DNA from: the human T2T-CHM13v2.0 reference genome, Homo sapiens
Reading direction: 5' to 3'
Assembly (NCBI GenBank): GCA_009914755.4
Contig: CP086569.2
Coordinates: 33,664,001-33,728,000 of the forward strand
DNA: 64,000 bases
The notes below the pieces were generated by a model that was not told the origin of the DNA, ran no database searches, and worked only from the letters and a program-made list of their open reading frames with translations. Both the position numbers and the translations under genes were made by a program. Of the stretch, positions 1 to 64,000 are shown one piece after another (position 1 is the stretch's first letter; each line of letters begins with the position of its first letter).

Positions 1-3000
1 GAGTCAAATGGAATGGTCTGGAATGGAATGAACACGAATGTAATGCAATCCAATAGAATGGAATCGAATGGCATGGAATATAAAGAAATGGAATCGAAGA
101 GAATGGAAACAAATGGAATGGAATTGAATGGAATGGAATTGAATGGAATGGGAACGAATGGAGTGAAATTGTATGCAGTAGAAGGGAATAGAATGGAATG
201 CAAGCGAAAGGAAAGGAATGGATTGGAATGGAATGGAATTCATTGGAATGGAAGGGAATGTAGTGTAATGGACAGGCCTGGAATAAAGTGGAATGCTACG
301 GTCTCGAATGGAATAAAAATGTATGGAATGGAATGCAATGAAACGGAATCGAATGTCATAGAATGTAATGGAATGCAAAAAAATGGAATCCTAAATCATT
401 GACTGGAAAGGCTGGGTGTCGAAAGGAATTGACTCCAATGGAATGGAATCGAATGGAATGGAAGTGAATAGAATCGAACTAAATCGAATGGAATGGAATT
501 GATAGGAACGGAATGGAAAGGAATGCAATGATTTGGCATGGAATGGAATCGAATGGCATCGAATGGAATGGAATGGAATGCAATGGAATGGAATGTATTA
601 GAATGTAATGAACTTTAATGGAATGTACTCGAATGGATTCGACTGGAATGGAATGTTCTGGAAGTGAATGGACTCCAATGGAATGGATTCAAAAGGAATG
701 GAATCGTACGGAATGGAATCTAATGGAATGGAATTAAATGGAAATGAATCAAATTGAATAGCACGGAATTGAATTGAATGGAATGGAATGCAATGGAATC
801 TAATGAAACGGAAAGGAAAGGAATGGAATGGAATGGAAAGGGCTGGAATGGAAAGGAATCGAAACGAATGGAATGGAATCGAACTGAAGAGACTGGAATG
901 GAATGCACTGGAATGGAAGGGAGTGTAATGGAAGGTTCTCGAAAAAAATGGAATCGAATGGAATGGAATTGAATGGAACGGAATAGAGTCGAATGGAATT
1001 GAATGGAATGGAATGGACTAGAGTGAAATGGAATCGAACCACAAGGAATGGACAGGAATAGAATGGTCTCGAATTGAATGGAATCGTATGGAATGGCATC
1101 AAACGGAATGGAATGGACAGCCACGGAATGGAATGCACTCGAATGCAATGGAGTCGAAACTAATGGACTGGAATAGAATGGACTCGACTGGTACGGACTC
1201 CAATGGAATGGAATCGAATGGAAGGGAATCGAACGGAATGGACTCGAAGGGAAAAGACTGCAATGGAAAGGTCTCGAATGGAATGGAAATTAATGGAATG
1301 GAATGGAATCGAATGTAATGGAGTCAAAAGGAATGGAATCGAATGGCAAGAAATCGAATGTAATGGAATCGCAAGGAATTGATGTGAAAGGAACGGAATG
1401 GAATGGAATCCAAAGGAATGGAATAGAATGGAATGGAATCGAATGGAAAGGACTCGAATGGAAATCACTCGAATAGAATGCAATTTAATAAAATAGGATC
1501 AAATGTAATGGAATGGAATGGAAAGGAATCGAAACGAAAGGAATGGAGACAGATGGAATGGAATGGAACAGAGAGCAATGGTATAGAATGGAATGGAATC
1601 ATCTGGAATGGAATTGAATGGAATGGAATAATATGAAATGGAATGGAATGGAATGGAATGGAATGGAATGGAACGCCCTTGAATTAAATGGACTGGAATG
1701 GAATGGACTCGAACAGAGTGGAATGGAAAGTGTTGAGATAGAATGCAATGGACTCCTTCGGAATGGTCTAGTATGCAATGCAATCGACTGGCAGGGAATC
1801 AAAAGGAATGTAATCGAATGGATTGGACTGGAATGCAGTGGACTCGAATAGATTGGAAACGGAATGCAAAGGAATGGAATGGAATAGTATGGAATGGAAT
1901 GGAAAGGAATGGAGTGGAATAGACTAGAGTGGAATGGAATGGACTGGAAAGCAATGGACTGGAATGGAACTTTCTTGAATGGACTGGAATCAAACGGAAT
2001 GGAATGCAATGCAATCAAATGGCATGCAATAAAATAGAATGAAAGAGAATCAAATGGAATTGAATCGAATGGAATCGAATGGATTGGAAAGGAATAGAAT
2101 GGAATGCAATGGAATGGACTAGAATGGAATGGATTCGAATGGAAGGCAAAGGAATGGAATCTATTGGAATGGACTGTAATGGAATGGAATGGAAGGGATT
2201 GGAATGGACTCGAATGGAATGGACTGCAATAGAAAGGATTCGAATGGAATGAAAAAGAATTGAATGGAATAGAACAGAATGGAATCAAATCGAATGAAAT
2301 GGAATGGAATAGAAAGGAATGGAATGAAATGGCATGGAAAGGATTCGAATGGAATGCAATCGAATGGAATGGAATCGAACGGAATGGAATAAAATGGAAG
2401 AAAACTGGCAAGAAATGGAATCGAAATGAATGGAGTGTTATGGAACGGACTCAAAAGGAATTGAATGTAATAGAATGGAGTGGAGTGGACTCGAATATAA
2501 TGGACTGGAATGGAATGAAATCACAAGGAATGGGAACGAATGGAATGGAATGGAAAGGAATGGAATCGAATGGAAAGGAATCGAATGGAAGGGAATGAAA
2601 TTGAATCAACAGGAATGGAAGGGAATAGAATAGACGGTAATGGAATGGAGTCGAATAGAATGGACACGAATGCTCAAATTGAATGGACTCGAATGGAATG
2701 GAAACGAAAGGAATGTCATCGAATGGAATTGAATGGATTGGAATGAAATCGCATAGAATGGAGTGGAATCAAATGGAATTGAATCGAAAGGAAAGGAAGC
2801 GAATGGACTGAAATGAAATGGAATGGAATTGAATGGAAAGTAGTGCAATGGAATAGAATGGAACGAAATTTCACGGAATGGAATCAAACTGAATGGAATC
2901 AAATCAATGGAATCAAATCAAATGGAATGGAAAGGAATTGAATGGAGTAGATTGGATTGGATGGGATTGGAATGAAATGTACTGGAAAGGACTCGAATTT

Positions 3001-3564
3001 CATGAAACGGAATGGAATGAATTGGAACGGAATGGACTCGAATGGAATGGAATGTCATGGAATGGCATCAAATGGAATGGCATCAAATGGAATGGAATCG
3101 AATGCAATGGAATGCTATGGAATGGAATGGAATGCATTGGAATGGAATGTCCTGTAATGGAATGGATTCGAGTGGAATGGAATCGAATATAATGGAGTCG
3201 AATGAAATGGAATTGAAAGGAATGGGATCGAATACAATGGAATATACTGGAATGTAATGTAATGAACTCGAATGTAATTGACTGGAATGGAATGTACATG
3301 AATGGAATGTAATCGAATGGAAAGTAATCCAATGGAATAGAATCTAATGCAATAAAATCGACTCAGATAGAGTAGAATGTAATGGAATGGAGTGCAGTGC
3401 AATGGAATGGAATGGAATGGAATGCAATGGAATGGAATGGAATGGAATGGAATGGAATGGAATGGGATGGAATGGGATGGAATGGGATGGAATGGATAGT
3501 AATGGACTGGAGTGAAATGGACTGGAAAGGAATGGACTCAAATTGATAGGGCTCGAAAGGAATG
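1..3564 (+). repeat. HOR unit 1 (3564 bp; most diverged copy, carries private variants and small indels relative to units 2-18).
   Basis: Landmark 'gagtcaaatggaatggtctggaatggaatgaacacgaatg' at 1 and again at 3565. Confidence 0.85.
3399..3494 (+). repeat. Near-pure (GGAAT)n / (GGGAT)n microsatellite core inside the HOR unit (unit 1 example).
   Basis: Runs of perfect ggaat followed by two or three gggatgg units. The tract recurs at the same unit offset in every copy with a different repeat count, for example 6968-7070 in unit 2. Confidence 0.8.
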
Positions 3565-10715: not shown

Positions 10716-13700
10716 GAGTCAAATGGAATGGTCTGGAATGGAATGAACACGAATGTAATGCAATCCAATAGAATGGAATCGAATGGCATGGAATATAAAG
10801 AAATGGAATCGAAGAGAATGGAAACAAATGGAATGGAATTGAATGGAATGGAATTGAATGGAATGGGAACGAATGGAGTGAAATTGTATGCAGTAGAAGG
10901 GAATAGAATGGAATGCAAGCGAAAGGAAAGGAATGGATTGGAATGGAATGGAATTCATTGGAATGGAAGGGAATGTAGTGTAATGGACAGGCCTGGAATA
11001 AAGTGGAATGCTACGGTCTCGAATGGAATAAAAATGTATGGAATGGAATGCAATGAAACGGAATCGAATGTCATAGAATGTAATGGAATGCAAAAAAATG
11101 GAATCCAAAATCATTGACTGGAAAGGCTGGGTGTCGAAAGGAATTGACTCCAATGGAATGGAATCGAATGGAATGGAAGTGAATAGAATCGAACTAAATC
11201 GAATGGAATGGAATTGATAGGAACGGAATGGAAAGGAATGCAATGATTTGGCATGGAATGGAATCGAATGGCATCGAATGGAATGGAATGGAATGCAATG
11301 GAATGGAATGTATTAGAATGTAATGAACTTTAATGGAATGTACTCGAATGGATTCGACTGGAATGGAATGTTCTGGAAGTGAATGGACTCCAATGGAATG
11401 GATTCAAAAGGAATGGAATCGTACGGAATGGAATCTAATGGAATGGAATTAAATGGAAATGAATCAAATTGAATAGCACGGAATTGAATTGAATGGAATG
11501 GAATGCAATGGAATCTAATGAAACGGAAAGGAAAGGAATGGAATGGAATGGAATGGGCTGGAATGGAAAGGAATCGAAACGAATGGAATGGAATCGAACT
11601 GAAGAGACTGGAATGGAATGCACTGGAATGGAAGGGAGTGTAATGGAAGGTTCTCGAAAAAAATGGAATCGAATGGAATGGAATTGAATGGAACGGAATA
11701 GAGTCGAATGGAATTGAATGGAATGGAATGGACTAGAGTGAAATGGAATCGAACCACAAGGAATGGACAGGAATAGAATGGTCTCGAATTGAATGGAATC
11801 GTATGGAATGGCATCAAACGGAATGGAATGGACAGCCACGGAATGGAATGCACTCGAATGCAATGGAGTCGAAACTAATGGACTGGAATAGAATGGACTC
11901 GACTGGTACGGACTCCAATGGAATGGAATCGAATGGAAGGGAATCGAACGGAATGGACTCGAAGGGAAAAGACTGCAATGGAAAGGTCTCGAATGGAATG
12001 GAAATTAATGGAATGGAATGGAATCGAATGAAATGGAGTCAAAAGGAATGGAATCGAATGGCAAGAAATCGAATGTAATGGAATCGCAAGGAATTGATGT
12101 GAACGGAACGGAATGGAATGGAATCCAAAGGAATGGAATAGAATGGAATGGAATCGAATGGAAAGGACTCGAATGGAAATCACTCGAATAGAATGCAATT
12201 TAATAAAATAGGATCAAATGTAATGGAATGGAATGGAAAGGAATCGAAACGAAAGGAATGGAGACAGATGGAATGGAATGGAACAGAGAGCAATGGTATA
12301 GAATGGAATGGAATCATCTGGAATGGAATTGAATGGAATGGAATAATATGAAATGGAATGGAATGGAATGGAATGGAATGCCCTTGAATTAAATGGACTG
12401 GAATGGAATGGACTCGAACAGAGTGGAATGGAAAGTGTTGAGATAGAATGGAATGGACTCCTTTGGAATGGTGTAGTATGCAATGCAATCGACTGGCAGG
12501 GAATCAAAAGGAATGTAATGGAATGGATTGGACTGGAATGCAATGGACTCGAATAGATTGGAAACGGAATGCAAAGGAATGGAATGGAATAGTATGGAAT
12601 GGAATGGAAAGGAATGGAGTGGAATAGACTAGAGTGGAATGGAATGGACTGGAAAGCAATGGACTGGAATGGAACTTTCTTGAATGGACTGGAATCAAAC
12701 GGAATGGAATGCAATGCAATCAAATGGCATGGAATAAAATAGAATGAAAGAGAATCAAATGGAATTGAATCGAATGGAATCGAATGGATTGGAAAGGAAT
12801 AGAATGGAATGGAATGGAATTGACTCAAATGGAATGGACTAGAATGGAATGGATTCGAATGGAAGGCAAAGGAATGGAATCTATTGGAATGGACTGTAAT
12901 GGAATGGAATGGAAGGGATTGGAATGGACTCGAATGGAATGGACTGCAATAGAAAGGATTCGAATGGAATGAAAAAGAATTGAATGGAATAGAACAGAAT
13001 GGAATCAAATCGAATGAAATGGAATGGAATAGAAAGGAATGGAATGAAATGGAATGGAAAGGATTCGAATGGAATGCAATCGAATGGAATGGAATCGAAC
13101 GGAATGGAATAAAATGGAAGAAAACTGGCAAGAAATGGAATCGAAATGAATGGAGTGTTATGGAACGGACTCAAAAGGAATTGAATGTAATAGAATGGAG
13201 TGGAGTGGACTCGAATATAATGGACTGGAATGGAATGAAATCACAAGGAATGGGAACGAATGGAATGGAATGGAAAGGAATGGAATCGAATGGAAAGGAA
13301 TCGAATGGAAGGGAATGAAATTGAATTAACAGGAATGGAAGGGAATAGAATAGACGGTAATGGAATGGACTCGAATAGAATGGACACGAATGCTCAAATT
13401 GAATGGACTCGAATGGAATGGAAACGAAAGGAATGTCATCGAATGGAATTGAATGGATTGGAATGAAATCGCATAGAATGGAGTGGAATCAAATGGAATT
13501 GAATCGAAAGGAAAGGAAGCGAATGGACTGAAATGAAATGGAATGGAATTGAATGGAAAGTAATGCAATGGAATAGAATGGAACGAAATTTCACGGAATG
13601 GAATCAAACTGAATGGAATCAAATCAATGGAATCAAATCAAATGGAATGGAAAGGAATTGAATGGAGTAGATTGGATTGGATGGGATTGGAATGAAATGT

Positions 13701-14284
13701 ACTGGAAAGGACTCGAATTTCATGAAACGGAATGGAATGAATTGGAACGGAATGGACTCGAATGGAATGGAATGTCATGGAATGGCATCAAATGGAATGG
13801 CATCAAATGGAATGGAATCGAATGCAATGGAATGCTATGGAATGGAATGGAATGCGTTGGAATGGAATGTCCTGTAATGGAATGGATTCGAGTGGAATGG
13901 AATCGAATATAATGGAGTCGAATGAAATGGAATTGAAAGGAATGGGATCGAATACAATGGAATATACTGGAATGTAATGTAATGAACTCGAATGTAATTG
14001 ACTGGAATGGAATGTACATGAATGGAATGTAATCGAATGGAAAGTAATCCAATGGAATAGAATCTAATGCAATAAAATCGACTCAGATAGAGTAGAATGT
14101 AATGGAATGGAGTGCAGTGCAATGGAATGGAATGGAATGGAATGCAATGGAATGGAATGGAATGGAATGGAATGGAATGGAATGGGATGGAATGGGATGG
14201 AATGGGATGGAATGGATAGTAATGGACTGGAGTGAAATGGACTGGAAAGGAATGGACTCAAATTGATAGGGCTCGAAAGGAATG
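10716..14284 (+). repeat. HOR unit 4 (3569 bp).
   Basis: Landmark at 10716 and 14285. Confidence 0.85.
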
Positions 14285-17200
14285 GAGTCAAATGGAATGG
14301 TCTGGAATGGAATGAACACGAATGTAATGCAATCCAATAGAATGGAATCGAATGGCATGGAATATAAAGAAATGGAATCGAAGAGAATGGAAACAAATGG
14401 AATGGAATTGAATGGAATGGAATTGAATGGAATGGGAACGAATGGAGTGAAATTGTATGCAGTAGAAGGGAATAGAACGGAATGCAAGCGAAAGGAAAGG
14501 AATGGATTGGAATGGAATGGAATTCATTGGAATGGAAGGGAATGTAGTGTAATGGACAGGCCTGGAATAAAGTGGAATGCTACGGTCTCGAATGGAATAA
14601 AAATGTATGGAATGGAATGCAATGAAACGGAATCGAATGTCATAGAATGTAATGGAATGCAAAAAAATGGAATCCAAAATCATTGACTGGAAAGGCTGGG
14701 TGTCGAAAGGAATTGACTCCAATGGAATGGAATCGAATGGAATGGAAGTGAATAGAATCGAACTAAATCGAATGGAATGGAATTGATAGGAACGGAATGG
14801 AAAGGAATGCAATGATTTGGCATGGAATGGAATCGAATGGCATCGAATGGAATGGAATGGAATGCAATGGAATGGAATGTATTAGAATGTAATGAACTTT
14901 AATGGAATGTACTCGAATGGATTCGACTGGAATGGAATGTTCTGGAAGTGAATGGACTCCAATGGAATGGATTCAAAAGGAATGGAATCGTACGGAATGG
15001 AATCTAATGGAATGGAATTAAATGGAAATGAATCAAATTGAATAGCACGGAATTGAATTGAATGGAATGGAATGCAATGGAATCTAATGAAACGGAAAGG
15101 AAAGGAATGGATTGGAATGGAATGGGCTGGAATGGAAAGGAATCGAAACGAATGGAATGGAATCGAAGTGAAGAGACTGGAATGGAATGCACTGGAATGG
15201 AAGGGAGTGTAATGGAAGGTTCTCGAAAAAAATGGAATCGAATGGAATGGAATTGAATGGAACGGAATAGAGTCGAATGGAATTGAATGGAATGGAATGG
15301 ACTAGAGTGAAATGGAATCGAACCACAAGGAATGGACAGGAATAGAATGGTCTCGAATTGAATGGAATCGTATGGAATGGCATCAAACGGAATGGAATGG
15401 ACAGCCACGGAATGGAATGCACTCGAATGCAATGGAGTCGAAACTAATGGACTGGAATAGAATGGACTCGACTGGTACGGACTCCAATGGAATGGAATCG
15501 AATGGAAGGGAATCGAACGGAATGGACTCGAAGGGAAAAGACTGCAATGGAAAGGTCTCGAATGGAATGGAAATTAATGGAATGGAATGGAATCGAATGA
15601 AATGGAGTCAAAAGGAATGGAATCGAATGGCAAGAAATCGAATGTAATGGAATCGCAAGGAATTGATGTGAACGGAACGGAATGGAATGGAATCCAAAGG
15701 AATGGAATAGAATGGAATGGAATCGAATGGAAAGGACTCGAATGGAAATCACTCGAATAGAATGCAATTTAATAAAATAGGATCAAATGTAATGGAATGG
15801 AATGGAAAGGAATCGAAACGAAAGGAATGGAGACAGATGGAATGGAATGGAACAGAGTGCAATGGTATAGAATGGAATGGAATCATCTGGAATGGAATTG
15901 AATGGAATGGAATAATATGAAATGGAATGGACTGGAATGGAATGGAATGCCCTTGAATTAAATGGACTGGAATGGAATGGACTCGAACAGAGTGGAATGG
16001 AAAGTGTTGAGATAGAATGGAATGGACTCCTTTGGAATGGTGTAGTATGCAATGCAATCGACTGGCAGGGAATCAAAAGGAATGTAATGGAATGGATTGG
16101 ACTGGAATGCAATGGACTCGAATAGATTGGAAACGGAATGCAAAGGAATGGAATGGAATAGTATGGAATGGAATGGAAAGGAATGGAGTGGAATAGACTA
16201 GAGTGGAATGGAATGGACTGGAAAGCAATGGACTGGAATGGAACTTTCTTGAATGGACTGGAATCAAACGGAATGGAATGCAATGCAATCAAATGGCATG
16301 GAATAAAATAGAATGAAAGAGAATCAAATGGAATTGAATCGAATGGAATCGAATGGATTGGAAAGGAATAGAATGGAATGGAATGGAATTGACTCAAATG
16401 GAATGGACTAGAATGGAATGGATTCGAATGGAAGGCAAAGGAATGGAATCTATTGGAATGGACTGTAATGGAATGGAATGGAAGGGATTGGAATGGACTC
16501 GAATGGAATGGACTGCAATAGAAAGGATTCGAATGGAATGAAAAAGAATTGAATGGAATAGAACAGAATGGAATCAAATCGAATGAAATGGAATGGAATA
16601 GAAAGGAATGGAATGAAATGGAATGGAAAGGATTCGAATGGAATGCAATCGAATGGAATGGAATCGAACGGAATGGAATAAAATGGAAGAAAACTGGCAA
16701 GAAATGGAATCGAAATGAATGGAGTGTTATGGAACGGACTCAAAAGGAATTGAATGTAATAGAATGGAGTGGAGTGGACTCGAATATAATGGACTGGAAT
16801 GGAATGAAATCACATGGAATGGGAACGAATGGAATGGAATGGAAAGGAATGGAATCAAATGGAAAGGAATCGAATGGAAGGGAATGAAATTGAATCAACA
16901 GGAATGGAAGGGAATAGAATAGACGGTAATGGAATGGACTCGAATTGAATGGACACGAATGCTGAAATTGAATGGACTCGAATGGAATGGAAACGAAAGG
17001 AATGTCATCGAATGGAATTGAATCGATTGGAATGAAATCGCATAGAATGGAGTGGAATCAAATGGAATTGAATCGAAAGGAAAGGAAGCGAATGGACTGA
17101 AATGAAATGGAATGGAATTGAATGGAAAGTAATGCAATGGAATAGAATGGAACGAAATTTCACGGAATGGAATCAAACTGAATGGAATCAAATCAATGGA

Positions 17201-46429: not shown

Positions 46430-49400
46430 GAGTCAAATGGAATGGTCTGGAATGGAATGAACACGAATGTAATGCAATCCAATAGAATGGAATCGAATGG
46501 CATGGAATATAAAGAAATGGAATCGAAGAGAATGGAAACAAATGGAATGGAATTGAATGGAATGGAATTGAATGGAATGGGAACGAATGGAGTGAAATTG
46601 TATGCAGTAGAAGGGAATAGAATGGAATGCAAGCGAAAGGAAAGGAATGGATTGGAATGGAATGGAATTCATTGGAATGGAAGGGAATGTAGTGTAATGG
46701 ACAGGCCTGGAATAAAGTGGAATGCTACGGTCTCGAATGGAATAAAAATGTATGGAATGGAATGCAATGAAACGGAATCGAATGTCATAGAATGTAATGG
46801 AATGCAAAAAAATGGAATCCAAAATCATTGACTGGAAAGGCTGGGTGTCGAAAGGAATTGACTCCAATGGAATGGAATCGAATGGAATGGAAGTGAATAG
46901 AATCGAACTAAATCGAATGGAATGGAATTGATAGGAACGGAATGGAAAGGAATGCAATGATTTGGCATGGAATGGAATCGAATGGCATCGAATGGAATGG
47001 AATGGAATGCAATGGAATGGAATGTATTAGAATGTAATGAACTTTAATGGAATGTACTCGAATGGATTCGACTGGAATGGAATGTTCTGGAAGTGAATGG
47101 ACTCCAATGGAATGGATTCAAAAGGAATGGAATCGTACGGAATGGAATCTAATGGAATGGAATTAAATGGAAATGAATCAAATTGAATAGCACGGAATTG
47201 AATTGAATGGAATGGAATGCAATGGAATCTAATGAAACGGAAAGGAAAGGAATGGAATGGAATGGAATGGGCTGGAATGGAAAGGAATCGAAACGAATGG
47301 AATGGAATCGAACTGAAGAGACTGGAATGGAATGCACTGGAATGGAAGGGAGTGTAATGGAAGGTTCTCGAAAAAAATGGAATGGAATGGAATGGAATTG
47401 AATGGAACGGAATAGAGTCGAATGGAATTGAATGGAATGGAATGGACTAGAGTGAAATGGAATCGAACCACAAGGAATGGACAGGAATAGAATGGTCTCG
47501 AATTGAATGGAATCGTATGGAATGGCATCAAACGGAATGGAATGGACAGCCACGGAATGGAATGCACTCGAATGCAATGGAGTCGAAACTAATGGACTGG
47601 AATAGAATGGACTCGACTGGTACGGACTCCAATGGAATGGAATCGAATGGAAGGGAATCGAACGGAATGGACTCGAAGGGAAAAGACTGCAATGGAAAGG
47701 TCTCGAATGGAATGGAAATTAATGGAATGGAATGGAATCGAATGAAATGGAGTCAAAAGGAATGGAATCGAATGGCAAGAAATCGAATGTAATGGAATCG
47801 CAAGGAATTGATGTGAACGGAACGGAATGGAATGGAATCCAAAGGAATGGAATAGAATGGAATGGAATCGAATGGAAAGGACTCGAATGGAAATCACTCG
47901 AATAGAATGCAATTTAATAAAATAGGATCAAATGGAATGGAATGGAATGGAAAGGAATCGAAATGAAAGGAATGGAGACAGATGGAATGGAATGGAACAG
48001 AGAGCAATGGTATAGAATGGAATGGAATCATCTGGAATGGAATTGAATGGAATGGAATAATATGAAATGGAATGGAATGGAATGGAATGGAATGCCCTTG
48101 AATTAAATGGACTGGAATGGAATGGACTCGAACAGAGTGGAATGGAAAGTGTTGAGATAGAATGCAATGGACTCCTTTGGAATGGTGTAGTATGCAATGC
48201 AATCGACTGGCAGGGAATCAAAAGGAATGTAATGGAATGGATTGGACTGGAATGCAATGGACTCGAATAGATTGGAAACGGAATGCAAAGGAATGGAATG
48301 GAATAGTATGGAATGGAATGGAAAGGAATGGAGTGGAATAGACTAGAGTGGAATGGAATGGACTGGAAAGCAATGGACTGGAATGGAACTTTCTTGAATG
48401 GACTGGAATCAAACGGAATGGAATGCAATGCAATCAAATGGCATGGAATAAAATAGAATGAAAGAGAATCAAATGGAATTGAATCGAATGGAATCGAATG
48501 GATTGGAAAGGAATAGAATGGAATGGAATTGAATTGACTCAAATGGAATGGACTAGAATGGAATGGATTCGAATGGAAGGCAAAGGAATGGAATCTATTG
48601 GAATGGACTGTAATGGAATGGAATGGAAGGGATTGGAATGGACTCGAATGGAATGGACTGCAATAGAAAGGATTCGAATGGAATGAAAAAGAATTGAATG
48701 GAATAGAACAGAATGGAATCAAATCGAATGAAATGGAATGGAATAGAAAGGAATGGAATGAAATGGAATGGAAAGGATTCGAATGGAATGCAATCGAATG
48801 GAATGGAATCGAACGGAATGGAATAAAATGGAAGAAAACTGGCAAGAAATGGAATCGAAATGAATGGAGTGTTATGGAACGGACTCAAAAGGAATTGAAT
48901 GTAATAGAATGGAGTGGAGTGGACTCGAATATAATGGACTGGAATGGAATGAAATCACAAGGAATGGGAACGAATGGAATGGAATGGAAAGGAATGGAAT
49001 CGAATGGAAAGGAATCGAATGGAAGGGAATGAAATTGAATCAACAGGAATGGAAGGGAATAGAATAGACGGTAATGGAATGGACTCGAATAGAATGGACA
49101 CGAATGCTCAAATTGAATGGACTCGAATGGAATGGAAACGAAAGGAATGTCATCGAATGGAATTGAATGGATTGGAATGAAATCGCATAGAATGGAGTGG
49201 AATCAAATGGAATTGAATCGAAAGGAAAGGAAGCGAATGGACTGAAATGAAATGGAATGGAATTGAATGGAAAGTAATGCAATGGAATAGAATGGAACGA
49301 AATTTCACGGAATGGAATCAAACTGAATGGAATCAAATCAATGGAATCAAATCAATGGAATCAATTCAAATGGAATGGAAAGGAATTGAATGGAGTAGAT

Positions 49401-50012
49401 TGGATTGGATGGGATTGGAATGAAATGTACTGGAAAGGACTCGAATTTCATGAAACGGAATGGAATGAATTGGAACGGAATGGACTCGAATGGAATGGAA
49501 TGTCATGGAATGGCATCAAATGGAATGGCATCAAATGGAATGGAATCGAATGCAATGGAATGCTATGGAATGGAATGGAATGCATTGGAATGGAATGTCC
49601 TGTAATGGAATGGATTCGAGTGGAATGGAATCGAATATAATGGAGTCGAATGAAATGGAATTGAAAGGAATGGGATCGAATACAATGGAATATACTGGAA
49701 TGTAATGTAATGAACTCGAATGTAATTGACTGGAATGGAATGTACATGAATGGAATGTAATCGAATGGAAAGTAATCCAATGGAATAGAATCTAATGCAA
49801 TAAAATCGACTCAGATAGAGTAGAATGTAATGGAATGGAGTGCAGTGCAATGGAATGGAATGGAATGGAATGCAATGGAATGGAATGGAATGGAATGGAA
49901 TGGAATGGAATGGGATGGATTGGGATGGAATGGGATGGAATGGATAGTAATGGACTGGAGTGAAATGGACTGGAAAGGAATGGACTCAAATTGATAGGGC
50001 TCGAAAGGAATG
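46430..50012 (+). repeat. HOR unit 14 (3583 bp; carries a 14-bp module duplication).
   Basis: Landmark at 46430 and 50013. Confidence 0.85.
49331..49373 (+). repeat. Extra copy of the 14-nt module 'aatcaaatcaatgg', giving three modules instead of two (unit 14).
   Basis: Unit 14: 'aatcaaatcaatgg aatcaaatcaatgg aatcaattcaaatgg'. Other units: 'aatcaaatcaatgg aatcaaatcaaatgg'. This accounts for the +14 bp (3583-bp unit). Confidence 0.8.
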
Positions 50013-53000
50013 GAGTCAAATGGAATGGTCTGGAATGGAATGAACACGAATGTAATGCAATCCAATAGAATGGAATCGAATGGCATGGAATATAAAGAAA
50101 TGGAATCGAAGAGAATGGAAACAAATGGAATGGAATTGAATGGAATGGAATTGAATGGAATGGGAACGAATGGAGTGAAATTGTATGCAGTAGAAGGGAA
50201 TAGAATGGAATGCAAGCGAAAGGAAAGGAATGGATTGGAATGGAATGGAATTCATTGGAATGGAAGGGAATGTAGTGTAATGGACAGGCCTGGAATAAAG
50301 TGGAATGCTACGGTCTCGAATGGAATAAAAATGTATGGAATGGAATGCAATGAAACGGAATCGAATGTCATAGAATGTAATGGAATGCAAAAAAATGGAA
50401 TCCAAAATCATTGACTGGAAAGGCTGGGTGTCGAAAGGAATTGACTCCAATGGAATGGAATCGAATGGAATGGAAGTGAATAGAATCGAACTAAATCGAA
50501 TGGAATGGAATTGATAGGAACGGAATGGAAAGGAATGCAATGATTTGGCATGGAATGGAATCGAATGGCATCGAATGGAATGGAATGGAATGCAATGGAA
50601 TGGAATGTATTAGAATGTAATGAACTTTAATGGAATGTACTCGAATGGATTCGACTGGAATGGAATCGTACGGAATGGAATCTAATGGAATGGAATTAAA
50701 TGGAAATGAATCAAATTGAATAGCACGGAATTGAATTGAATGGAATGGAATGCAATGGAATCTAATGAAACGGAAAGGAAAGGAATGGAATGGAATGGAA
50801 TGGGCTGGAATGGAAAGGAATCGAAACGAATGGAATGGAATCGAACTGAAGAGACTGGAATGGAATGCACTGGAATGGAAGGGAGTGTAATGGAAGGTTC
50901 TCGAAAAAAATGGAATGGAATGGAATGGAATTGAATGGAACGGAATAGAGTCGAATGGAATTGAATGGAATGGAATGGACTAGAGTGAAATGGAATCGAA
51001 CCACAAGGAATGGACAGGAATAGAATGGTCTCGAATTGAATGGAATCGTATGGAATGGCATCAAACGGAATGGAATGGACAGCCACGGAATGGAATGCAC
51101 TCGAATGCAATGGAGTCGAAACTAATGGACTGGAATAGAATGGACTCGACTGGTACGGACTCCAATGGAATGGAATCGAATGGAAGGGAATCGAACGGAA
51201 TGGACTCGAAGGGAAAAGACTGCAATGGAAAGGTCTCGAATGGAATGGAAATTAATGGAATGGAATGGAATCGAATGAAATGGAGTCAAAAGGAATGGAA
51301 TCGAATGGCAAGAAATCGAATGTAATGGAATCGCAAGGAATTGATGTGAACGGAACGGAATGGAATGGAATCCAAAGGAATGGAATAGAATGGAATGGAA
51401 TCGAATGGAAAGGACTCGAATGGAAATCACTCGAATAGAATGCAATTTAATAAAATAGGATCAAATGTAATGGAATGGAATGGAAAGGAATCGAAACGAA
51501 AGGAATGGAGACAGATGGAATGGAATGGAACAGAGTGCAATGGTATAGAATGGAATGGAATCATCTGGAATGGAATTGAATGGAATGGAATAATATGAAA
51601 TGGAATGGAATGGAATGGAATGGAATGCCCTTGAATTAAATGGACTGGAATGGAATGGACTCGAACAGAGTGGAATGGAAAGTGTTGAGATAGAATGGAA
51701 TGGACTCCTTTGGAATGGTGTAGTATGCAATGCAATCGACTGGCAGGGAATCAAAAGGAATGTAATGGAATGGATTGGACTGGAATGCAATGGACTCGAA
51801 TAGATTGGAAACGGAATGCAAAGGAATGGAATGGAATAGTATGGAATGGAATGGAAAGGAATGGAGTGGAATAGACTAGAGTGGAATGCAATGGACTGGA
51901 AAGCAATGGACTGGAATGGAACTTTCTTGAATGGACTGGAATCAAACGGAATGGAATGCAATGCAATCAAATGGCATGGAATAAAATAGAATGAAAGAGA
52001 ATCAAATGGAATTGAATCGAATGGAATCGAATGGATTGGAAAGGAATAGAATGGAATGGAATGGAATTGACTCAAATGGAATGGACTAGAATGGAATGGA
52101 TTCGAATGGAAGGCAAAGGAATGGAATCTATTGGAATGGACTGTAATGGAATGGAATGGAAGGGATTGGAATGGACTCGAATGGAATGGACTGCAATAGA
52201 AAGGATTCGAATGGAATGAAAAAGAATTGAATGGAATAGAACAGAATGGAATCAAATCGAATGAAATGGAATGGAATAGAAAGGAATGGAATGAAATGGA
52301 ATGGAAAGGATTCGAATGGAATGCAATCGAATGGAATGGAATCGAACGGAATGGAATAAAATGGAAGAAAACTGGCAAGAAATGGAATCGAAATGAATGG
52401 AGTGTTATGGAACGGACTCAAAAGGAATTGAATGTAATAGAATGGAGTGGAGTGGACTCGAATATAATGGACTGGAATGGAATGAAATCACATGGAATGG
52501 GAACGAATGGAATGGAATGGAAAGGAATGGAATCGAATGGAAAGGAATCGAATGGAAGGGAATGAAATTGAATCAACAGGAATGGAAGGGAATAGAATAG
52601 ACGGTAATGGAATGGACTCGAATAGAATGGACACGAATGCTGAAATGGAATGGACTCGAATGGAATGGAAACGAAAGGAATGTCATCGAATGGAATTGAA
52701 TCGATTGGAATGAAATCGCATAGAATGGAGTGGAATCAAATGGAATTGAATCGAAAGGAAAGGAAGCGAATGGACTGAAATGAAATGGAATGGAATTGAA
52801 TGGAAAGTAATGCAATGGAATAGAATGGAACGAAATTTCACGGAATGGAATCAAACTGAATGGAATCAAATCAATGGAATCAAATCAAATGGAATGGAAA
52901 GGAATTGAATGGAGTAGATTGGATTGGATGGGATTGGAATGAAATGTACTGGAAAGGACTCGAATTTCATGAAACGGAATGGAATGAATTGGAACGGAAT

Positions 53001-53531
53001 GGACTCGAATGGAATGGAATGTCATGGAATGGCATCAAATGGAATGGCATCAAATGGAATGGAATCGAATGCAATGGAATGCTATGGAATGGAATGGAAT
53101 GCATTGGAATGGAATGTCCTCTAATGGAATGGATTCGAGTGGAATGGAATCGAATATAATGGAGTCGAATGAAATGGAATTGAAAGGAGTGGGATCGAAT
53201 ACAATGGAATATACTGGAATGTAATGTAATGAACTCGAATGTAATTGACTGGAATGGAATGTACATGAATGGAATGTAATCGAATGGAAAGTAATCCAAT
53301 GGAATAGAATCTAATGCAATAAAACCGACTCAGATAGAGTAGAATGTAATGGAATGGAGTGCAGTGCAATGGAATGGAATGGAATGGAATGCAATGGAAT
53401 GGAATGGAATGGAATGCAATGGAATTGAATGGAATGGAATGGGATGGAATGGGATGGAATGGATAGTAATGGACTGGAGTGAAATGGACTGGAAAGGAAT
53501 GGACTCAAATTGAAAGGGCTCGAAAGGAATG
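50013..53531 (+). repeat. HOR unit 15 (3519 bp; carries a 50-bp internal deletion).
   Basis: Landmark at 50013 and 53532. Confidence 0.85.
50657..50666 (+). other. Junction of a 50-bp deletion in unit 15, flanked by the direct repeat 'ggaatggaat'.
   Basis: Unit 15 reads 'gattcgactggaatggaatcgtacgg'. Other units have 50 extra bases, 'gttctggaagtgaatggactccaatggaatggattcaaaaggaatggaat', between 'ggaat' and 'cgtacgg'. Unit length 3519 = 3569 - 50. Confidence 0.85.
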
Positions 53532-56500
53532 GAGTCAAATGGAATGGTCTGGAATGGAATGAACACGAATGTAATGCAATCCAATAGAATGGAATCGAAT
53601 GGCATGGAATATAAAGAAATGGAATCGAAGAGAATGGAAACAAATGGAATGGAATTGAATGGAATGGAATTGAATGGAATGGGAACGAATGGAGTGAAAT
53701 TGTATGCAGTAGAAGGGAATAGAATGGAATGCAAGCGAAAGGAAAGGAATGGATTGGAATGGAATGGAATTCATTGGAATGGAAGGGAATGTAGTGTAAT
53801 GGACAGGCCTGGAATAAAGTGGAATGCTACGGTCTCGAATGGAATAAAAATGTATGGAATGGAATGCAATGAAACGGAATCGAATGTCATAGAATGTAAT
53901 GGAATGCAAAAAAATGGAATCCAAAATCATTGACTGGAAAGGCTGGGTGTCGAAAGGAATTGACTCCAATGGAATGGAATCGAATGGAATGGAAGTGAAT
54001 AGAATCGAACTAAATCGAATGGAATGGAATTGATAGGAACGGAATGGAAAGGAATGCAATGATTTGGCATGGAATGGAATCGAATGGCATCGAATGGAAT
54101 GGAATGGAATGCAATGGAATGGAATGTATTAGAATGTAATGAACTTTAATGGAATGTACTCGAATGGATTCGACTGGAATGGAATGTTCTGGAAGTGAAT
54201 GGACTCCAATGGAATGGATTCAAAAGGAATGGAATCGTACGGAATGGAATCTAATGGAATGGAATTAAATGGAAATGAATCAAATTGAATAGCACGGAAT
54301 TGAATTGAATGGAATGGAATGCAATGGAATCTAATGAAACGGAAAGGAAAGGAATGGAATGGAATGGAATGGGCTGGAATGGAAAGGAATCGAAACGAAT
54401 GGAATGGAATCGAACTGAAGAGACTGGAATGGAATGCACTGGAATGGAAGGGAGTGTAATGGAAGGTTCTCGAAAAAAATGGAATCGAATGGAATGGAAT
54501 TGAATGGAACGGAATAGAGTCGAATGGAATTGAATGGAATGGAATGGACTAGAGTGAAATGGAATCGAACCACAAGGAATGGACAGGAATAGAATGGTCT
54601 CGAATTGAATGGAATCGTATGGAATGGCATCAAACGGAATGGAATGGACAGCCACGGAATGGAATGCACTCGAATGCAATGGAGTCGAAACTAATGGACT
54701 GGAATAGAATGGACTCGACTGGTACGGACTCCAATGGAATGGAATCGAATGGAAGGGAATCGAACGGAATGGACTCGAAGGGAAAAGACTGCAATGGAAA
54801 GGTCTCGAATGGAATGGAAATTAATGGAATGGAATGGAATCGAATGAAATGGAGTCAAAAGGAATGGAATCGAATGGCAAGAAATCGAATGTAATGGAAT
54901 CGCAAGGAATTGATGTGAACGGAACGGAATGGAATGGAATCCAAAGGAATGGAATAGAATGGAATGGAATCGAATGGAAAGGACTCGAATGGAAATCACT
55001 CGAATAGAATGCAATTTAATAAAATAGGATCAAATGGAATGGAATGGAATGGAAAGGAATCGAAACGAAAGGAATGGAGACAGATGGAATGGAATGGAAC
55101 AGAGAGCAATGGTATAGAATGGAATGGAATCATCTGGAATGGAATTGAATGGAATGGAATAATATGAAATGGAATGGAATGGAATGGAATGGAATGTCCT
55201 TGAATTAAATGGACTGGAATGGAATGGACTCGAACAGAGTGGAATGGAAAGTGTTGAGATAGAATGCAATGGACTCCTTTGGAATGGTGTAGTATGCAAT
55301 GCAATCGACTGGCAGGGAATCAAAAGGAATGTAATGGAATGGATTGGACTGGAATGCAATGGACTCGAATAGATTGGAAACGGAATGCAAAGGAATGGAA
55401 TGGAATAGTATGGAATGGAATGGAAAGGAATGGAGTGGAATAGACTAGAGTGGAATGGAATGGACTGGAAAGCAATGGACTGGAATGGAACTTTCTTGAA
55501 TGGACTGGAATCAAACGGAATGGAATGCAATGCAATCAAATGGCATGGAATAAAATAGAATGAAAGAGAATCAAATGGAATTGAATCGAATGGAATCGAA
55601 TGGATTGGAAAGGAATAGAATGGAATGGAATGGAATTGACTCAAATGGAATGGACTAGAATGGAATGGATTCGAATGGAAGGCAAAGGAATGGAATCTAT
55701 TGGAATGGACTGTAATGGAATGGAATGGAAGGGATTGGAATGGACTCGAATGGAATGGACTGCAATAGAAAGGATTCGAATGGAATGAAAAAGAATTGAA
55801 TGGAATAGAACAGAATGGAATCAAATCGAATGAAATGGAATGGAATAGAAAGGAATGGAATGAAATGGAATGGAAAGGATTCGAATGGAATGCAATCGAA
55901 TGGAATGGAATCGAACGGAATGGAATAAAATGGAAGAAAACTGGCAAGAAATGGAATCGAAATGAATGGAGTGTTATGGAACGGACTCAAAAGGAATTGA
56001 ATGTAATAGAATGGAGTGGAGTGGACTCGAATATAATGGACTGGAATGGAATGAAATCACAAGGAATGGGAACGAATGGAATGGAATGGAAAGGAATGGA
56101 ATCGAATGGAAAGGAATCGAATGGAAGGGAATGAAATTGAATCAACAGGAATGGAAGGGAATAGAATAGACGGTAATGGAATGGACTCGAATAGAATGGA
56201 CACGAATGCTCAAATTGAATGGACTCGAATGGAATGGAAACGAAAGGAATGTCATCGAATGGAATTGAATGGATTGGAATGAAATCGCATAGAATGGAGT
56301 GGAATCAAATGGAATTGAATCGAAAGGAAAGGAAGCGAATGGACTGAAATGAAATGGAATGGAATTGAATGGAAAGTAATGCAATGGAATAGAATGGAAC
56401 GAAATTTCACGGAATGGAATCAAACTGAATGGAATCAAATCAATGGAATCAAATCAAATGGAATGGAAAGGAATTGAATGGAGTAGATTGGATTGGATGG

Positions 56501-63600: not shown

Positions 63601-64000
63601 GTAGATTGGATTGGATGGGATTGGAATGAAATGTACTGGAAAGGACTCGAATTTCATGAAACGGAATGGAATGAATTGGAACGGAATGGACTCGAATGGA
63701 ATGGAATGTCATGAAATGGCATCAAATGGAATGGCATCAAATGGAATGGAATCGAATGCAATGGAATGCTATGGAATGGAATGGAATGCATTGGAATGGA
63801 ATGTCCTCTAATGGAATGGATTCGAGTGGAATGGAATCGAATATAATGGAGTCGAATGAAATGGAATTGAAAGGAATGGGATCGAATACAATGGAATATA
63901 CTGGAATGTAATGTAATGAACTCGAATGTAATTGACTGGAATGGAATGTACATGAATGGAATGTAATCGAATGGAAAGTAATCCAATGGAATAGAATCTA
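60665..64000 (+). repeat. HOR unit 18, partial (3336 bp, truncated by the window end).
   Basis: Landmark at 60665; sequence colinear with other units to the window end. Confidence 0.8.

What the first reader, a model, noticed from the sequence alone, without database searches (positions are those of the whole stretch)
1..64000. Whole window is an HSat3 array with a ~3.57-kb HOR, consistent with Y-chromosome DYZ1
The (GGAAT)n-derived pentamer array has a long, precisely repeating higher-order unit. Seventeen complete copies measure 3519-3583 bp, with a mode of 3569 and three of 3564. The classical DYZ1 block on Yq12 is described as a pentanucleotide (TTCCA/GGAAT) satellite with a unit of about 3.56 kb. 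Unit length, composition and the single HaeIII site per unit all fit. If so, this is constitutive heterochromatin with no genes expected.
Basis: partly seen in the sequence, partly recalled or inferred. Interest (0 to 1): 0.5.

Follow-up and report, generated by a model that had tools for sequence, protein, structure and literature searches.

The report
Human Y-chromosome DYZ1 satellite array
The whole 64-kb window is an unbroken run of about 18 copies of the long-known 3.57-kb DYZ1 (HSat3A6) satellite repeat of the human Y chromosome, which is ordinary, already described gene-free heterochromatin.

Summary
There are 18 in-register anchors and 17 complete units of 3519-3583 bp (3569 six times, 3564 three times). 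Each unit has one HaeIII site, inside a StuI site, and one EcoRI site.

- A published cloned human DYZ1 HaeIII unit (3564 bp, PMC3925983 Additional file 1) aligns to all 17 units at 99.30-99.61 % identity. Two units align gap-free at exactly 3564 bp.
- The window consensus is 3,569 bp, the length Hallast et al. found most abundant for DYZ1 HaeIII fragments.
- Of the 14 HSat2/3 subfamily marker 24-mers of Altemose 2014, only the HSat3A6 (chrY/DYZ1) marker matches, twice per unit. The other 13 have no exact hits.
- Eight published DYZ1 primers, the published Yq12 ChIP primers, GC content (38.9 %) and CpG density (1 per 35.8 bp) all fit.
- No tRNAs or Rfam families were found, and no protein-family match reached Pfam's cut-off. 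The ORFs are pentamer read-through.

Copies are 99.57 % alike. A 3-unit (10,715-bp) tandem duplication and mostly pentamer-multiple indels show turnover by unequal exchange and slippage. Each unit keeps three heat-shock elements, consistent with reported HSF1 binding at Yq12.

The Yq12 location rests on the literature, because no human reference was available to search. Verdict: already known, low interest.

The parts
1..64000 (+). Uninterrupted DYZ1 / HSat3A6 satellite array. The GGAAT-rich strand is the + strand, and the published TTCCA-strand unit aligns to the - strand. It holds 17 complete HaeIII units plus two partial end units. No array boundary, DYZ2 block or transposon lies inside the window.
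   Evidence: composition and a single TRF array; all units 99.3-99.6 % identical to the published DYZ1 clone; the 17 units align in 3611 columns, largest indel 50 bp; partial ends match the consensus.
275..278 (.). HaeIII site GGCC, inside StuI AGGCCT at 274-279. It is the classical DYZ1 unit boundary and recurs at 3839, 7413, 10990, 14559, 18123, 21702, 25274, 28843, 32420, 35989, 39558, 43135, 46704, 50287, 53806, 57375 and 60939.
   Evidence: Hallast et al. define DYZ1 units by virtual HaeIII digestion, with 3,569 bp the most abundant fragment.
236..241 (.). The single EcoRI site (GAATTC) of each unit, 39 bp upstream of the HaeIII site. There are 18 in the window.
14561..18124 (-). Unit U5, 3564 bp. 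It aligns gap-free to the published cloned 3564-bp DYZ1 HaeIII unit with 20 mismatches (99.44 %). Unit U17 (57377-60940) does the same with 18 mismatches.
10992..14560 (-). Unit U4, an example of the modal 3569-bp unit. It has 5 substitutions and 0 indel columns against the window consensus, which is itself 3,569 bp.
   Evidence: The 3,569-bp length equals the most abundant DYZ1 HaeIII fragment in 6 of 7 Y assemblies.
139..292 (.). A 154-bp amplicon bounded by two facing 23-mers, TTGAATGGAATGGGAACGAATGG (139-161, +) and TCCACTTTATTCCAGGCCTGTCC (270-292, -). Both are exact in all 18 units. I recalled them from memory as classical Y-specific sexing primers; that attribution could not be verified.
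   Evidence: 18 of 18 exact, 0 expected by chance. Searches did not find the primers in the held literature.
269..435 (.). Region bounded by the published Yq12-specific HSF1-ChIP primers. The forward primer lies at 269-292 (+, 1 mismatch) and the reverse primer at 414-435 (-, exact). Both are present in all 18 units.
   Evidence: primers printed in PMC7889540; mapping. The in-silico product is 167 bp, whereas the paper says 154 bp.
651..663 (.). Heat-shock element 1, GAAtgTTCtgGAA, at +376 from the GGCC site in every unit except U15, where a 50-bp deletion removes it.
931..943 (.). Heat-shock element 2, GAAggTTCtcGAA, at +656 from GGCC in every unit (+606 in U15).
1967..1979 (.). Heat-shock element 3, GAActTTCttGAA, at +1682 to +1692 from GGCC in every unit.
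   Evidence: The same three elements are present in the published clone.
844..867 (-). First of two copies per unit of the HSat3A6-specific 24-mer TCGTTTCGATTCCTTTCCATTCCA. The second copy in this unit is at 1514-1537.
   Evidence: 36 sites at one mismatch or fewer, 0 expected by chance; the other 13 subfamily markers have 0 exact hits; the same 24-mer occurs twice in the published clone.
28845..39559 (+). Units U9-U11 (3577 + 3569 + 3569 = 10,715 bp), the first copy of a recent 3-unit tandem duplication.
   Evidence: U9/U12 and U10/U13 differ by 1 substitution each, U11/U14 by 8. (about 3 mismatches over 28.9-38.5 kb at offset 10,715; exact 2,718-bp self-match 33951-36668). (shared private CpG variants of the 24-mer in U9/U12 and U11/U14).
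39560..50288 (+). Units U12-U14 (3577 + 3569 + 3583 bp), the second copy of the 3-unit duplication. U14 has since gained a 14-bp insertion.
50289..53807 (+). Unit U15, the short 3519-bp variant. It carries a 50-bp (ten-pentamer) deletion at alignment columns 376-425.

Best explanation
The window is a piece from the interior of a block of the human DYZ1 satellite. DYZ1 is also called HSat3A6 and is the pentamer-derived, roughly 3.57-kb nested tandem repeat that, alternating with DYZ2, fills the Yq12 heterochromatin of the Y chromosome.

Shown here:
- The sequence is DYZ1 (about 99.4 % identical to a cloned unit, with the same length, restriction sites, marker k-mers and primer sites).
- It has no tRNA or known RNA family and no supported protein-coding potential.
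- Its copies are 99.6 % alike.
- It contains a very recent tandem duplication of exactly three units (10,715 bp).
- Most of its length variants are gains or losses of whole pentamers (5, 10, 15 and 50 bp).

Inferred from these patterns and from established satellite biology: the array is kept homogeneous, and changes in size, by out-of-register (unequal) sister-chromatid exchange or conversion at unit or multi-unit register, and by replication slippage at the pentamer scale.

Inferred from the literature, not tested here:
- It is packaged as constitutive, CpG-methylated heterochromatin.
- On heat shock, HSF1 binds heat-shock elements embedded in the unit (three strict GAAnnTTCnnGAA sites are conserved in nearly every copy here).
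- HSF1 binding drives transcription of the G-rich strand, the + strand of this window, into (GGAAU)n-rich SATIII lncRNA, which nucleates nuclear stress bodies and recruits SR splicing factors.
- Testis-expressed and radiation-induced lncRNAs (lnc-RAINY / linc-SPRY3) have also been reported from this unit.
For: Identity:
- 17 of 17 HaeIII units are 99.30-99.61 % identical to the published clone, and two are gap-free at 3564 bp.
- the window consensus is 3,569 bp and differs from the clone by 14 substitutions and one 5-bp indel. Overlapping TTCCA counts are 231-239 per unit against 235 in the clone.
- only the HSat3A6 marker 24-mer is present, twice per unit as in the clone.
- all eight DYZ1 primers of PMC3925983 Table 5 map to every unit in the window that spans their site (17-18 sites each) with 0-1 edits.
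- the published Yq12 ChIP primers are present in 18 of 18 units.
- GC is 38.9 % with 1 CpG per 35.8 bp, against 38 % and 1 per 35 bp published for DYZ1.
- 3,569 bp is the most abundant DYZ1 HaeIII fragment in 6 of 7 complete Y assemblies.
- DYZ1 is a Y-specific HSat3 subfamily with units of about 3.6 kb, most over 98 % identical, in blocks of 80-1,600 kb.
- none of the ACCCGA-containing B-type motifs tested is present.
- independent public contigs (human contamination) carry the same unit at up to 99.6 % identity, with implied unit lengths of 3569 and 3574 bp.

No genes: Rfam 0; tRNA 0; periodic FHSIP-type ORFs with only sub-threshold low-complexity Pfam hits.

Turnover: identity matrix, indel list; 10,715-bp offset nearly mismatch-free; private variants shared by the duplicated units.

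HSF1 and transcription: three HSEs at fixed positions, 53 in total against 2.2 in pentamer-block shuffles; HSF1 ChIP/FISH at Yq12, SRSF1 recruitment, a (GGAAU)n probe; testis and lnc-RAINY transcripts.
Against: - No human reference genome or T2T annotation could be searched, so the Yq12 placement is by literature and not by mapping.
- Altemose 2014 lists HSat3A6 localisation as 'Y, 7'. Y;autosome translocations of Yq heterochromatin exist in healthy carriers.
- The window shows no DYZ2 junction, so the alternating DYZ1/DYZ2 context is unseen.
- The reference clone came from PCR on male genomic DNA, not from a mapped locus.
- PMC7889540 reports four perfect HSEs in X06228 and a 154-bp ChIP amplicon. 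With a strict trimer definition I find three HSEs per unit, and a 167-bp product with one primer mismatch.
- The HSE excess over shuffles amounts to three independent sites amplified 18-fold. It is not evidence of selection.
- All functional steps (methylation, HSF1 binding, transcription) are untested on this sequence.
Confidence: 0.95

Rival explanations
1. It is an autosomal HSat3 array (for example 9q12 HSat3B5, chr15 HSat3A5, or the acrocentric short-arm subfamilies HSat3A1/A2/A4) that happens to have a higher-order period of about 3.57 kb.
For: It shares the GGAAT/ATTCC pentamer ancestry. HSat3 occurs on many chromosomes. At 2 mismatches, some autosomal marker 24-mers find 18-36 sites, as expected for related pentamer sequence.
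Against: All 13 non-A6 subfamily markers give 0 exact hits (12 give none and one gives a single hit at one mismatch), against 30 exact and 36 near-exact hits for HSat3A6. The window is 99.3-99.6 % identical, full length, to a cloned DYZ1 unit, which equals its within-window identity. The HSat3B-type ACCCGA-containing motifs tested are absent. Unit length, HaeIII site, GC content and CpG density equal the published DYZ1 values.
Confidence: 0.01
2. It is another pentameric Y satellite rather than DYZ1 proper. Candidates are pericentromeric HSat3/DYZ17 (HSat3A3), DYZ18, or the 2.7-kb and 3.1-kb DYZ1-derived repeats at the Yq11/Yq12 transition.
For: These arrays are also (AATGG)n-based and Y-linked. 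According to Hallast et al., 77 % of the 2.7-kb unit is 97 % identical to DYZ1.
Against: Units here are 3519-3583 bp, not 2.7 or 3.1 kb. They align end to end with the 3564-bp DYZ1 clone, with gaps of at most 50 bp. The HSat3A3 marker 24-mer has 0 hits even at 2 mismatches.
Confidence: 0.01
3. The sequence is DYZ1 but is not located at Yq12 in its source. It could be a DYZ1 block carried on an autosome or acrocentric short arm by a Y;autosome heterochromatin translocation. It could also be a human-contaminant or misassembled contig inside a record labelled as another organism.
For: Y-heterochromatin translocations in healthy carriers are documented. Whole contigs of pure DYZ1 sit in six 'bacterial' genome records and 33 metagenome contigs, some of them 52-55 kb long. 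The window's origin is not disclosed.
Against: Such translocations are rare compared with the 20 Mb or more of DYZ1 on every Y. Bacterial-record contaminant contigs are mostly below 4 kb, while this is 64 kb of clean, low-indel sequence. The long metagenome contigs show many gap-opens against the unit. Either way, the biological identity of the DNA is unchanged.
Confidence: 0.03
4. The precise order of units and the 3-unit duplication are an assembly artefact (mis-joined or collapsed reads in a near-identical array) and not real structure.
For: Yq12 is the hardest region of the Y to assemble. Units differ by only 1-29 substitutions. Inter-unit variants show an unusual excess of transversions (45 against 26 transitions), which could hint at residual sequencing error.
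Against: 33 of 71 variable columns are shared by two or more units in coherent haplotype-like patterns. Unit lengths match lengths seen independently: 3564 in clones, 3569 in Hallast et al., and 3569 and 3574 in collapsed contigs. Iterative tandem duplications are a documented property of Yq12. This rival concerns fine structure only, not identity.
Confidence: 0.05

Closest known systems
DYZ1 / HSat3A6, Yq12 heterochromatin of the human Y chromosome (Cooke 1976; Nakahori et al. 1986, X06228; Altemose 2014; T2T-Y 2023; Hallast 2023)
   Same: Every feature that could be tested matches:
- Pentamer ancestry.
- Unit of 3564-3569 bp with a single HaeIII site.
- 99.3-99.6 % identity to a cloned unit.
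- The HSat3A6 marker 24-mer twice per unit.
- DYZ1 PCR and ChIP primer sites.
- GC of 38.9 % and 1 CpG per 35.8 bp.
- More than 98 % inter-unit identity.
- A local tandem duplication.

   Different: Nothing substantive differs. Only individual unit variants are specific to this stretch: 8-bp, 10-bp and 14-bp insertions, a 15-bp and a 50-bp deletion, and pentamer copy-number changes in the GGAAT/GGGAT run. The DYZ2 junction and the chromosomal position cannot be seen in the window.
HSat3B5, the 9q12 satellite III and classical site of HSF1-dependent nuclear stress bodies
   Same: It is also a GGAAT/ATTCC-derived satellite. It is reported to bind HSF1 on heat shock and to give (GGAAU)n SATIII lncRNA that recruits SR proteins.
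   Different: It belongs to a different HSat3 branch (B). Its marker 24-mer CTCCATTACATTCCATTCCATTCG has 0 hits at one mismatch or fewer. The ACCCGA-containing motifs that I recall as typical of B-type HSat3 are absent here. No 3.57-kb HaeIII unit is described for it.
Other Y pentameric satellites: DYZ17 / HSat3A3 (pericentromeric), DYZ18, and the 3.1-kb and 2.7-kb repeats at the Yq11/Yq12 transition
   Same: They are Y-linked and (AATGG)n-based. The 2.7-kb repeat is partly derived from DYZ1.
   Different: Their unit lengths differ. The HSat3A3 marker is absent. The window's units are full-length DYZ1.
DYZ2 / HSat1B, the partner satellite of Yq12
   Same: It alternates with DYZ1 in Yq12 and is likewise homogenised by unequal exchange.
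   Different: It is an unrelated sequence: a unit of about 2.4-2.5 kb with an AluY fragment and an AT-rich part, 24 % GC and 1 CpG per 150 bp. None of it is present in this window.

Membership tests
DYZ1 / HSat3A6 | Built from diverged tandem copies of the pentamer TTCCA / GGAAT | tested here: met
   There are 4,359 GGAAT on the + strand and 1 ATTCC. TRF finds one array with the 15-bp consensus AATGGAATGGAATCG. Overlapping TTCCA counts are 231-239 per unit against 235 in the published clone (Table 1 of PMC3925983 gives an in-frame count of 235).
DYZ1 / HSat3A6 | Higher-order (nested) tandem unit of about 3.56-3.6 kb; 3564 bp in the reference clone and 3,569 bp as the most abundant length in complete Y assemblies | tested here: met
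   There are 17 units of 3519-3583 bp, with 3569 six times and 3564 three times, and the consensus is 3,569 bp.
DYZ1 / HSat3A6 | One HaeIII site per unit, which gives the classical male-specific '3.4-kb' (3.56-kb) HaeIII band | tested here: met
   There are 18 GGCC sites in 64 kb, exactly one per unit.
DYZ1 / HSat3A6 | Full-length sequence identity to a reference DYZ1 unit | tested here: met
   Identity to the MZT1a clone is 99.30-99.61 % in aligned columns, and two units are gap-free.
DYZ1 / HSat3A6 | Presence of HSat3A6-specific k-mers and absence of the markers of other HSat2/3 subfamilies | tested here: met
   The HSat3A6 24-mer gives 30 exact hits and 36 at one mismatch or fewer. The other 13 markers give 0 exact hits. 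Only the one published marker per subfamily could be used, not the full set of 2,696 HSat3A6 24-mers.
DYZ1 / HSat3A6 | Base composition of about 38 % GC and about 1 CpG per 35 bp | tested here: met
   GC is 38.9 % with 1 CpG per 35.8 bp, against the published values.
DYZ1 / HSat3A6 | Male-specific and located at Yq12 | not testable with these tools
   No human genome, sexed read set or T2T annotation is searchable. Altemose Table 1 lists 'Y, 7'.
DYZ1 / HSat3A6 | Blocks alternate with DYZ2 (HSat1B) blocks | not testable with these tools
   The 64-kb window is shorter than typical DYZ1 blocks (80-1,600 kb in T2T-Y, median 370 kb) and contains no junction.
HSF1-responsive satellite III (nuclear stress body loci) | Heat-shock elements embedded in the repeat | tested here: met
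   There are three strict GAAnnTTCnnGAA trimers at fixed positions in 17 of 18 units and two in U15. PMC7889540 reports four in X06228 under its own definition.
HSF1-responsive satellite III (nuclear stress body loci) | HSF1 occupancy and stress-induced (GGAAU)n transcription | not testable with these tools
   This is experimental. It is reported for Yq12 in PMC7889540. That paper's ChIP primer sites are present in every unit here.
HSat3B (for example 9q12 HSat3B5) | B-type subfamily markers and ACCCGA-containing inserts (the motif feature is recalled from memory and was not found in the paper) | tested here: not met
   No exact hits for any of the HSat3B1-B5 markers. There are 0 occurrences of CAACCCGA[AG]T or ACCCGA on either strand.

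The most novel reading that the evidence does not exclude
The most novel reading still open has two forms. The first is that this DYZ1 stretch does not lie at Yq12 in its source genome, for example as a DYZ1 block moved to an acrocentric short arm or another autosome. The second is that the U9-U11 / U12-U14 duplication marks an emerging 10.7-kb 'super-unit' periodicity in part of the array. A weaker variant is that the conserved three HSEs per unit are under selection, which would make Yq12 a functional stress-inducible lncRNA locus rather than inert heterochromatin. That idea is already published (PMC7889540).
Probability: 0.03. Interest if true: 0.25.

Novelty: already known. Interest (0 to 1): 0.06.

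Why it matters
It matters little as a discovery. DYZ1 has been known since 1976-1986 and was resolved at base level in the T2T-Y and 43-Y assemblies. The value here is practical.
- The window can be labelled confidently as Yq12-type constitutive heterochromatin with no genes, and excluded from gene or element hunting.
- Its GGAAT-derived 'ORFs' should not be annotated as proteins.
- The same 3.57-kb unit turns up as contaminant contigs in bacterial genome and metagenome records, so DYZ1-like hits in microbial data should be read as human male DNA.
- The fine structure (a 3-unit duplication, mostly pentamer-multiple indels, HSEs conserved in nearly every copy) is a clean small-scale illustration of how such arrays turn over. 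It agrees with published models.

Tried and rejected
- Literal full-text searches for the two 23-mer sexing primers I recalled from memory found nothing, and 'DYZ1 + primers + 154 bp' found only an unrelated STS assay. Their attribution stays unverified, although they match 18 of 18 units exactly.
- The original Nakahori 1986 paper (PMC311781) and Jehan 2007 (PMC1832090) are not held. X06228 and the 67-nt CDC2L2-like stretch therefore could not be compared.
- The lnc-RAINY paper has no supplements held as text, and I found no pentamer-containing oligo in its main text. The transcript could not be placed on the unit.
- No explanation for the 'Y, 7' localisation of HSat3A6 was found in Altemose 2014. 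The ACCCGA-type motif I used to separate A-type from B-type HSat3 is from memory and was not found in that paper.
- Coding potential is rejected. The 90 ORFs of 120 aa or more recur once per unit, use bacterial TTG starts, and translate to FHSIP-type low-complexity strings. Their only Pfam hits are sub-threshold Extensin/Pentapeptide matches (38.8 bits against a cut-off of 105, and 26.7 against 38).
- RNA genes are rejected: 0 Rfam families and 0 tRNAs.
- A single global offset is a poor measure of the periodicity. It gives a match fraction of only 0.659 at offset 3569, because unit lengths drift. Unit-by-unit alignment was used instead.
- The phage, plasmid and E. coli collections, the protein-homology and structure tools, and the covariance-model tools were not used, because they cannot bear on a human satellite.

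Full report
OBSERVATION. The window is one uninterrupted pentamer-derived satellite. The + strand carries 4,359 GGAAT and a single ATTCC. Tandem Repeats Finder returns one array covering 7-63998 with the 15-bp consensus AATGGAATGGAATCG. GC content (0.38-0.40) and GC skew are flat throughout. The first 40 bases recur at 18 positions, giving 17 unit lengths of 3564, 3574, 3577, 3569, 3564, 3579, 3572, 3569, 3577, 3569, 3569, 3577, 3569, 3583, 3519, 3569 and 3564 bp. GGCC (HaeIII) occurs 18 times, once per unit, always within AGGCCT. GAATTC (EcoRI) also occurs once per unit. A multiple alignment of the 17 HaeIII-to-HaeIII units is 3611 columns long. The units differ by 1-29 substitutions, a mean identity of 99.57 %. 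By comparison, TRF's 15-bp pentamer-level array shows 68 % matches, and the match fraction at short pentamer-multiple offsets is about 0.65-0.69. The 3.57-kb period is real and far above background.

IDENTITY. The tools hold no human reference, so I looked for published DYZ1 sequence. PMC3925983 (BMC Genet 2014) gives eight cloned 3.56-kb DYZ1 HaeIII units in its Additional file 1 (GenBank KF941192-99) and eight DYZ1 primers. The 3564-bp 'MZT1a blood' unit aligns, on the - strand, to every one of the 17 units at 99.30-99.61 % identity in aligned columns. Units 14561-18124 and 57377-60940 align with no gap at exactly 3564 bp. The window's majority consensus is 3,569 bp and differs from the clone by 14 substitutions and one 5-bp indel. 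All eight primers map to every unit in the window that spans their site (17-18 sites each) with 0-1 edits.

Hallast et al. (bioRxiv 10.1101/2022.12.01.518658) define DYZ1 units by virtual HaeIII digestion. They report 3,569 bp as the most abundant fragment in 6 of 7 complete Y assemblies, with 38 % GC and 1 CpG per 35 bp. The window has mode and consensus 3,569 bp, 38.9 % GC and 1 CpG per 35.8 bp. The T2T-Y paper (10.1101/2022.12.01.518724) describes DYZ1 as a Y-specific HSat3 subfamily of roughly 3.6-kb nested repeats, most over 98 % identical, in blocks of 80-1,600 kb that alternate with DYZ2.

DISCRIMINATION FROM OTHER HSat3. Altemose et al. 2014 (PMC4022460, Table 1) list the commonest subfamily-specific 24-mer for each of 14 HSat2/3 subfamilies and equate HSat3A6 with DYZ1. 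Only the HSat3A6 marker is present here. It has 30 exact hits and 36 at one mismatch or fewer, two per unit, at the same two places as in the published clone. The six one-mismatch copies are all CpG transitions. The other 13 markers have 0 exact hits, including chr9 HSat3B5, chr15 HSat3A5, the acrocentric A1/A2/A4 markers and the other Y subfamily HSat3A3. ACCCGA-containing motifs, which I recall as typical of B-type HSat3, are absent. The Y-boundary repeats of 2.7 and 3.1 kb and DYZ18 are excluded by the unit length and by the end-to-end alignment. Identity to the DYZ1 clone equals the within-window identity, which leaves no room for a better match elsewhere.

Two 23-mers that I recalled as classical Y-sexing primers match all 18 units exactly and face each other across 154 bp. 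I could not find them in the held literature, so that attribution is from memory only.

INDEPENDENT COPIES. A DYZ1-specific 23-mer across the StuI/HaeIII site finds 6 contigs in 'bacterial' species-representative genomes and 33 metagenome contigs. The six bacterial-record contigs are DYZ1 over their whole length at 98.5-99.6 % identity to a window unit. Two single-unit contigs with terminal overlaps imply units of 3569 and 3574 bp. This is the human-Y HSat3 contamination of microbial databases that the T2T-Y paper describes. It shows the same unit in unrelated samples.

NO GENES. There are no Rfam families at gathering thresholds and no tRNAs. The 90 mechanical ORFs of 120 aa or more recur once per unit and translate to FHSIP-type pentamer read-through. 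Their only Pfam matches are sub-threshold low-complexity hits.

HOW IT WORKS: SHOWN. Units U9/U12 and U10/U13 differ by one substitution each, and U11/U14 by eight. At an offset of 10,715 bp (3577 + 3569 + 3569) the sequence from about 28.9 to 38.5 kb has about three mismatches, and there is an exact 2,718-bp self-match. Private CpG variants of the marker 24-mer are shared by U9/U12 and by U11/U14. So U9-U11 and U12-U14 are the two copies of a very recent tandem duplication in three-unit register. Length variants are mostly whole pentamers:
- a 50-bp deletion in U15;
- a 15-bp deletion and a 10-bp insertion in U1;
- 5-bp and 10-bp changes in a GGAAT/GGGAT run;
- an 8-bp insertion shared by U3, U7, U9 and U12, and a 14-bp insertion in U14.
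Variant types are interleaved along the array rather than clustered.

HOW IT WORKS: INFERRED. These patterns are what unequal sister-chromatid exchange or conversion at unit register, plus pentamer-scale slippage, would produce. This is the mechanism proposed for Yq12 from whole-chromosome data. The very high local homogeneity, 4-15 substitutions from the local consensus, fits the interior of a block as Hallast et al. describe.

FUNCTION: FROM THE LITERATURE. PMC7889540 reports that in heat-shocked male cells HSF1 forms foci at Yq12. It also reports that Yq12 is required for this in hybrid cells, that HSF1 ChIP enriches Y-specific SATIII, and that SRSF1 is recruited. It finds heat-shock elements in the 3564-bp DYZ1 reference. 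Its ChIP primers are present in all 18 units. Each unit carries three strict GAAnnTTCnnGAA elements at +376, +656 and about +1682 from the HaeIII site, and the published clone has the same three. U15 lacks the first because of its 50-bp deletion.

The match to that paper is not exact. I count three elements where it counts four, and my in-silico amplicon is 167 bp where it reports 154 bp. The excess over shuffles reflects three sites amplified 18-fold, not selection. The probe in that paper detects (GGAAU)n, so the RNA-like strand is the + strand of this window. Testis-specific and radiation-induced lncRNAs from the DYZ1 unit (Jehan 2007; lnc-RAINY) are also reported, but I could not place them on the unit. 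A review concludes that the evidence overall points to a minor role, or none, for DYZ repeats in male development.

VERDICT. This is human DYZ1 / HSat3A6. The Yq12 location is inferred from the literature and not mapped here. The finding is already known, carries no genes, and deserves a low interest score. Residual uncertainty concerns only where this copy sits (a rare translocated block or a contaminant record) and whether the fine unit order is assembly-perfect.

Noticed in passing
L001-L006 (BMRF01000076.1 Actinomadura cremea JCM 3308; CALPCJ010000043.1 Senimuribacter sp.; NZ_JBFAJD010000109.1 Streptomyces sp. NPDC050549; BNBB01000077.1 Streptosporangium violaceochromogenes JCM 3281; BMTN01000077.1 Streptomyces kurssanovii JCM 4388; CAYVXY010000078.1 Polyangiaceae MAG): Six contigs in bacterial species-representative genome records are pure human DYZ1 over their entire length, at 98.5-99.6 % identity to a window unit. 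L001 and L006 are single collapsed units with 63-bp and 35-bp terminal overlaps, implying units of 3574 and 3569 bp. This is human male DNA contamination of microbial records, as the T2T-Y paper predicted.
   Followed up: partly
L007-L039 (metagenome contigs, for example BNJT01001888.1 at 55 kb, BNJU01004413.1, BNJU01001848.1): 33 metagenome contigs carry the DYZ1 23-mer. The long ones show site spacing of 3539-3562 bp and many gap-opens against the unit, and are probably noisy long-read assemblies of human DNA. Several contigs are only 74-87 % identical (L016, L037, L036, L012, L013, L028), and L026 has two sites 305 bp apart. These could be diverged DYZ1-like repeats or chimeras.
   Followed up: no
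window, the 71 variable columns of the 17-unit alignment: Between copies, transversions outnumber transitions (45 against 26), which is unusual for human germline substitutions. CpG positions are 2.8-fold over-represented among variants (11 of 71 against 5.5 % of bases, binomial p = 0.002). The cause is unknown. Candidates are conversion between pentamer variants, residual sequencing or assembly error, or small numbers.
   Followed up: partly
window 1-64000: CpG is not depleted: observed/expected is 1.11, 34 % of + strand cytosines sit in CpG, and there are 63-65 TCGA per unit. This is despite the constitutive hypermethylation that Hallast et al. report for DYZ1 arrays. Homogenisation may be outrunning deamination decay, but this was not tested.
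   Followed up: no
window 50289-53807 (unit U15): The only short unit (3519 bp) has a 50-bp, ten-pentamer deletion that removes the first of the three heat-shock elements. It is the only unit with two HSEs.
   Followed up: yes
window 269-435 and equivalent positions in each unit: The Yq12 ChIP primers printed in PMC7889540 give a 167-bp in-silico product here, with one mismatch in the forward primer. The paper states 154 bp. The 154-bp figure matches instead the amplicon of the two 23-mers at 139-161 and 270-292. That paper also counts four perfect HSEs in X06228, where a strict GAAnnTTCnnGAA search finds three per unit.
   Followed up: partly
window, - strand ORFs such as 5063-5980 (305 aa), recurring once per unit: Stop-free read-through of the TTCCA strand gives long FHSIP-type 'ORFs' with weak Extensin/Pentapeptide-like Pfam scores below the cut-off. 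In contaminated microbial records these could be mis-annotated as proteins.
   Followed up: yes
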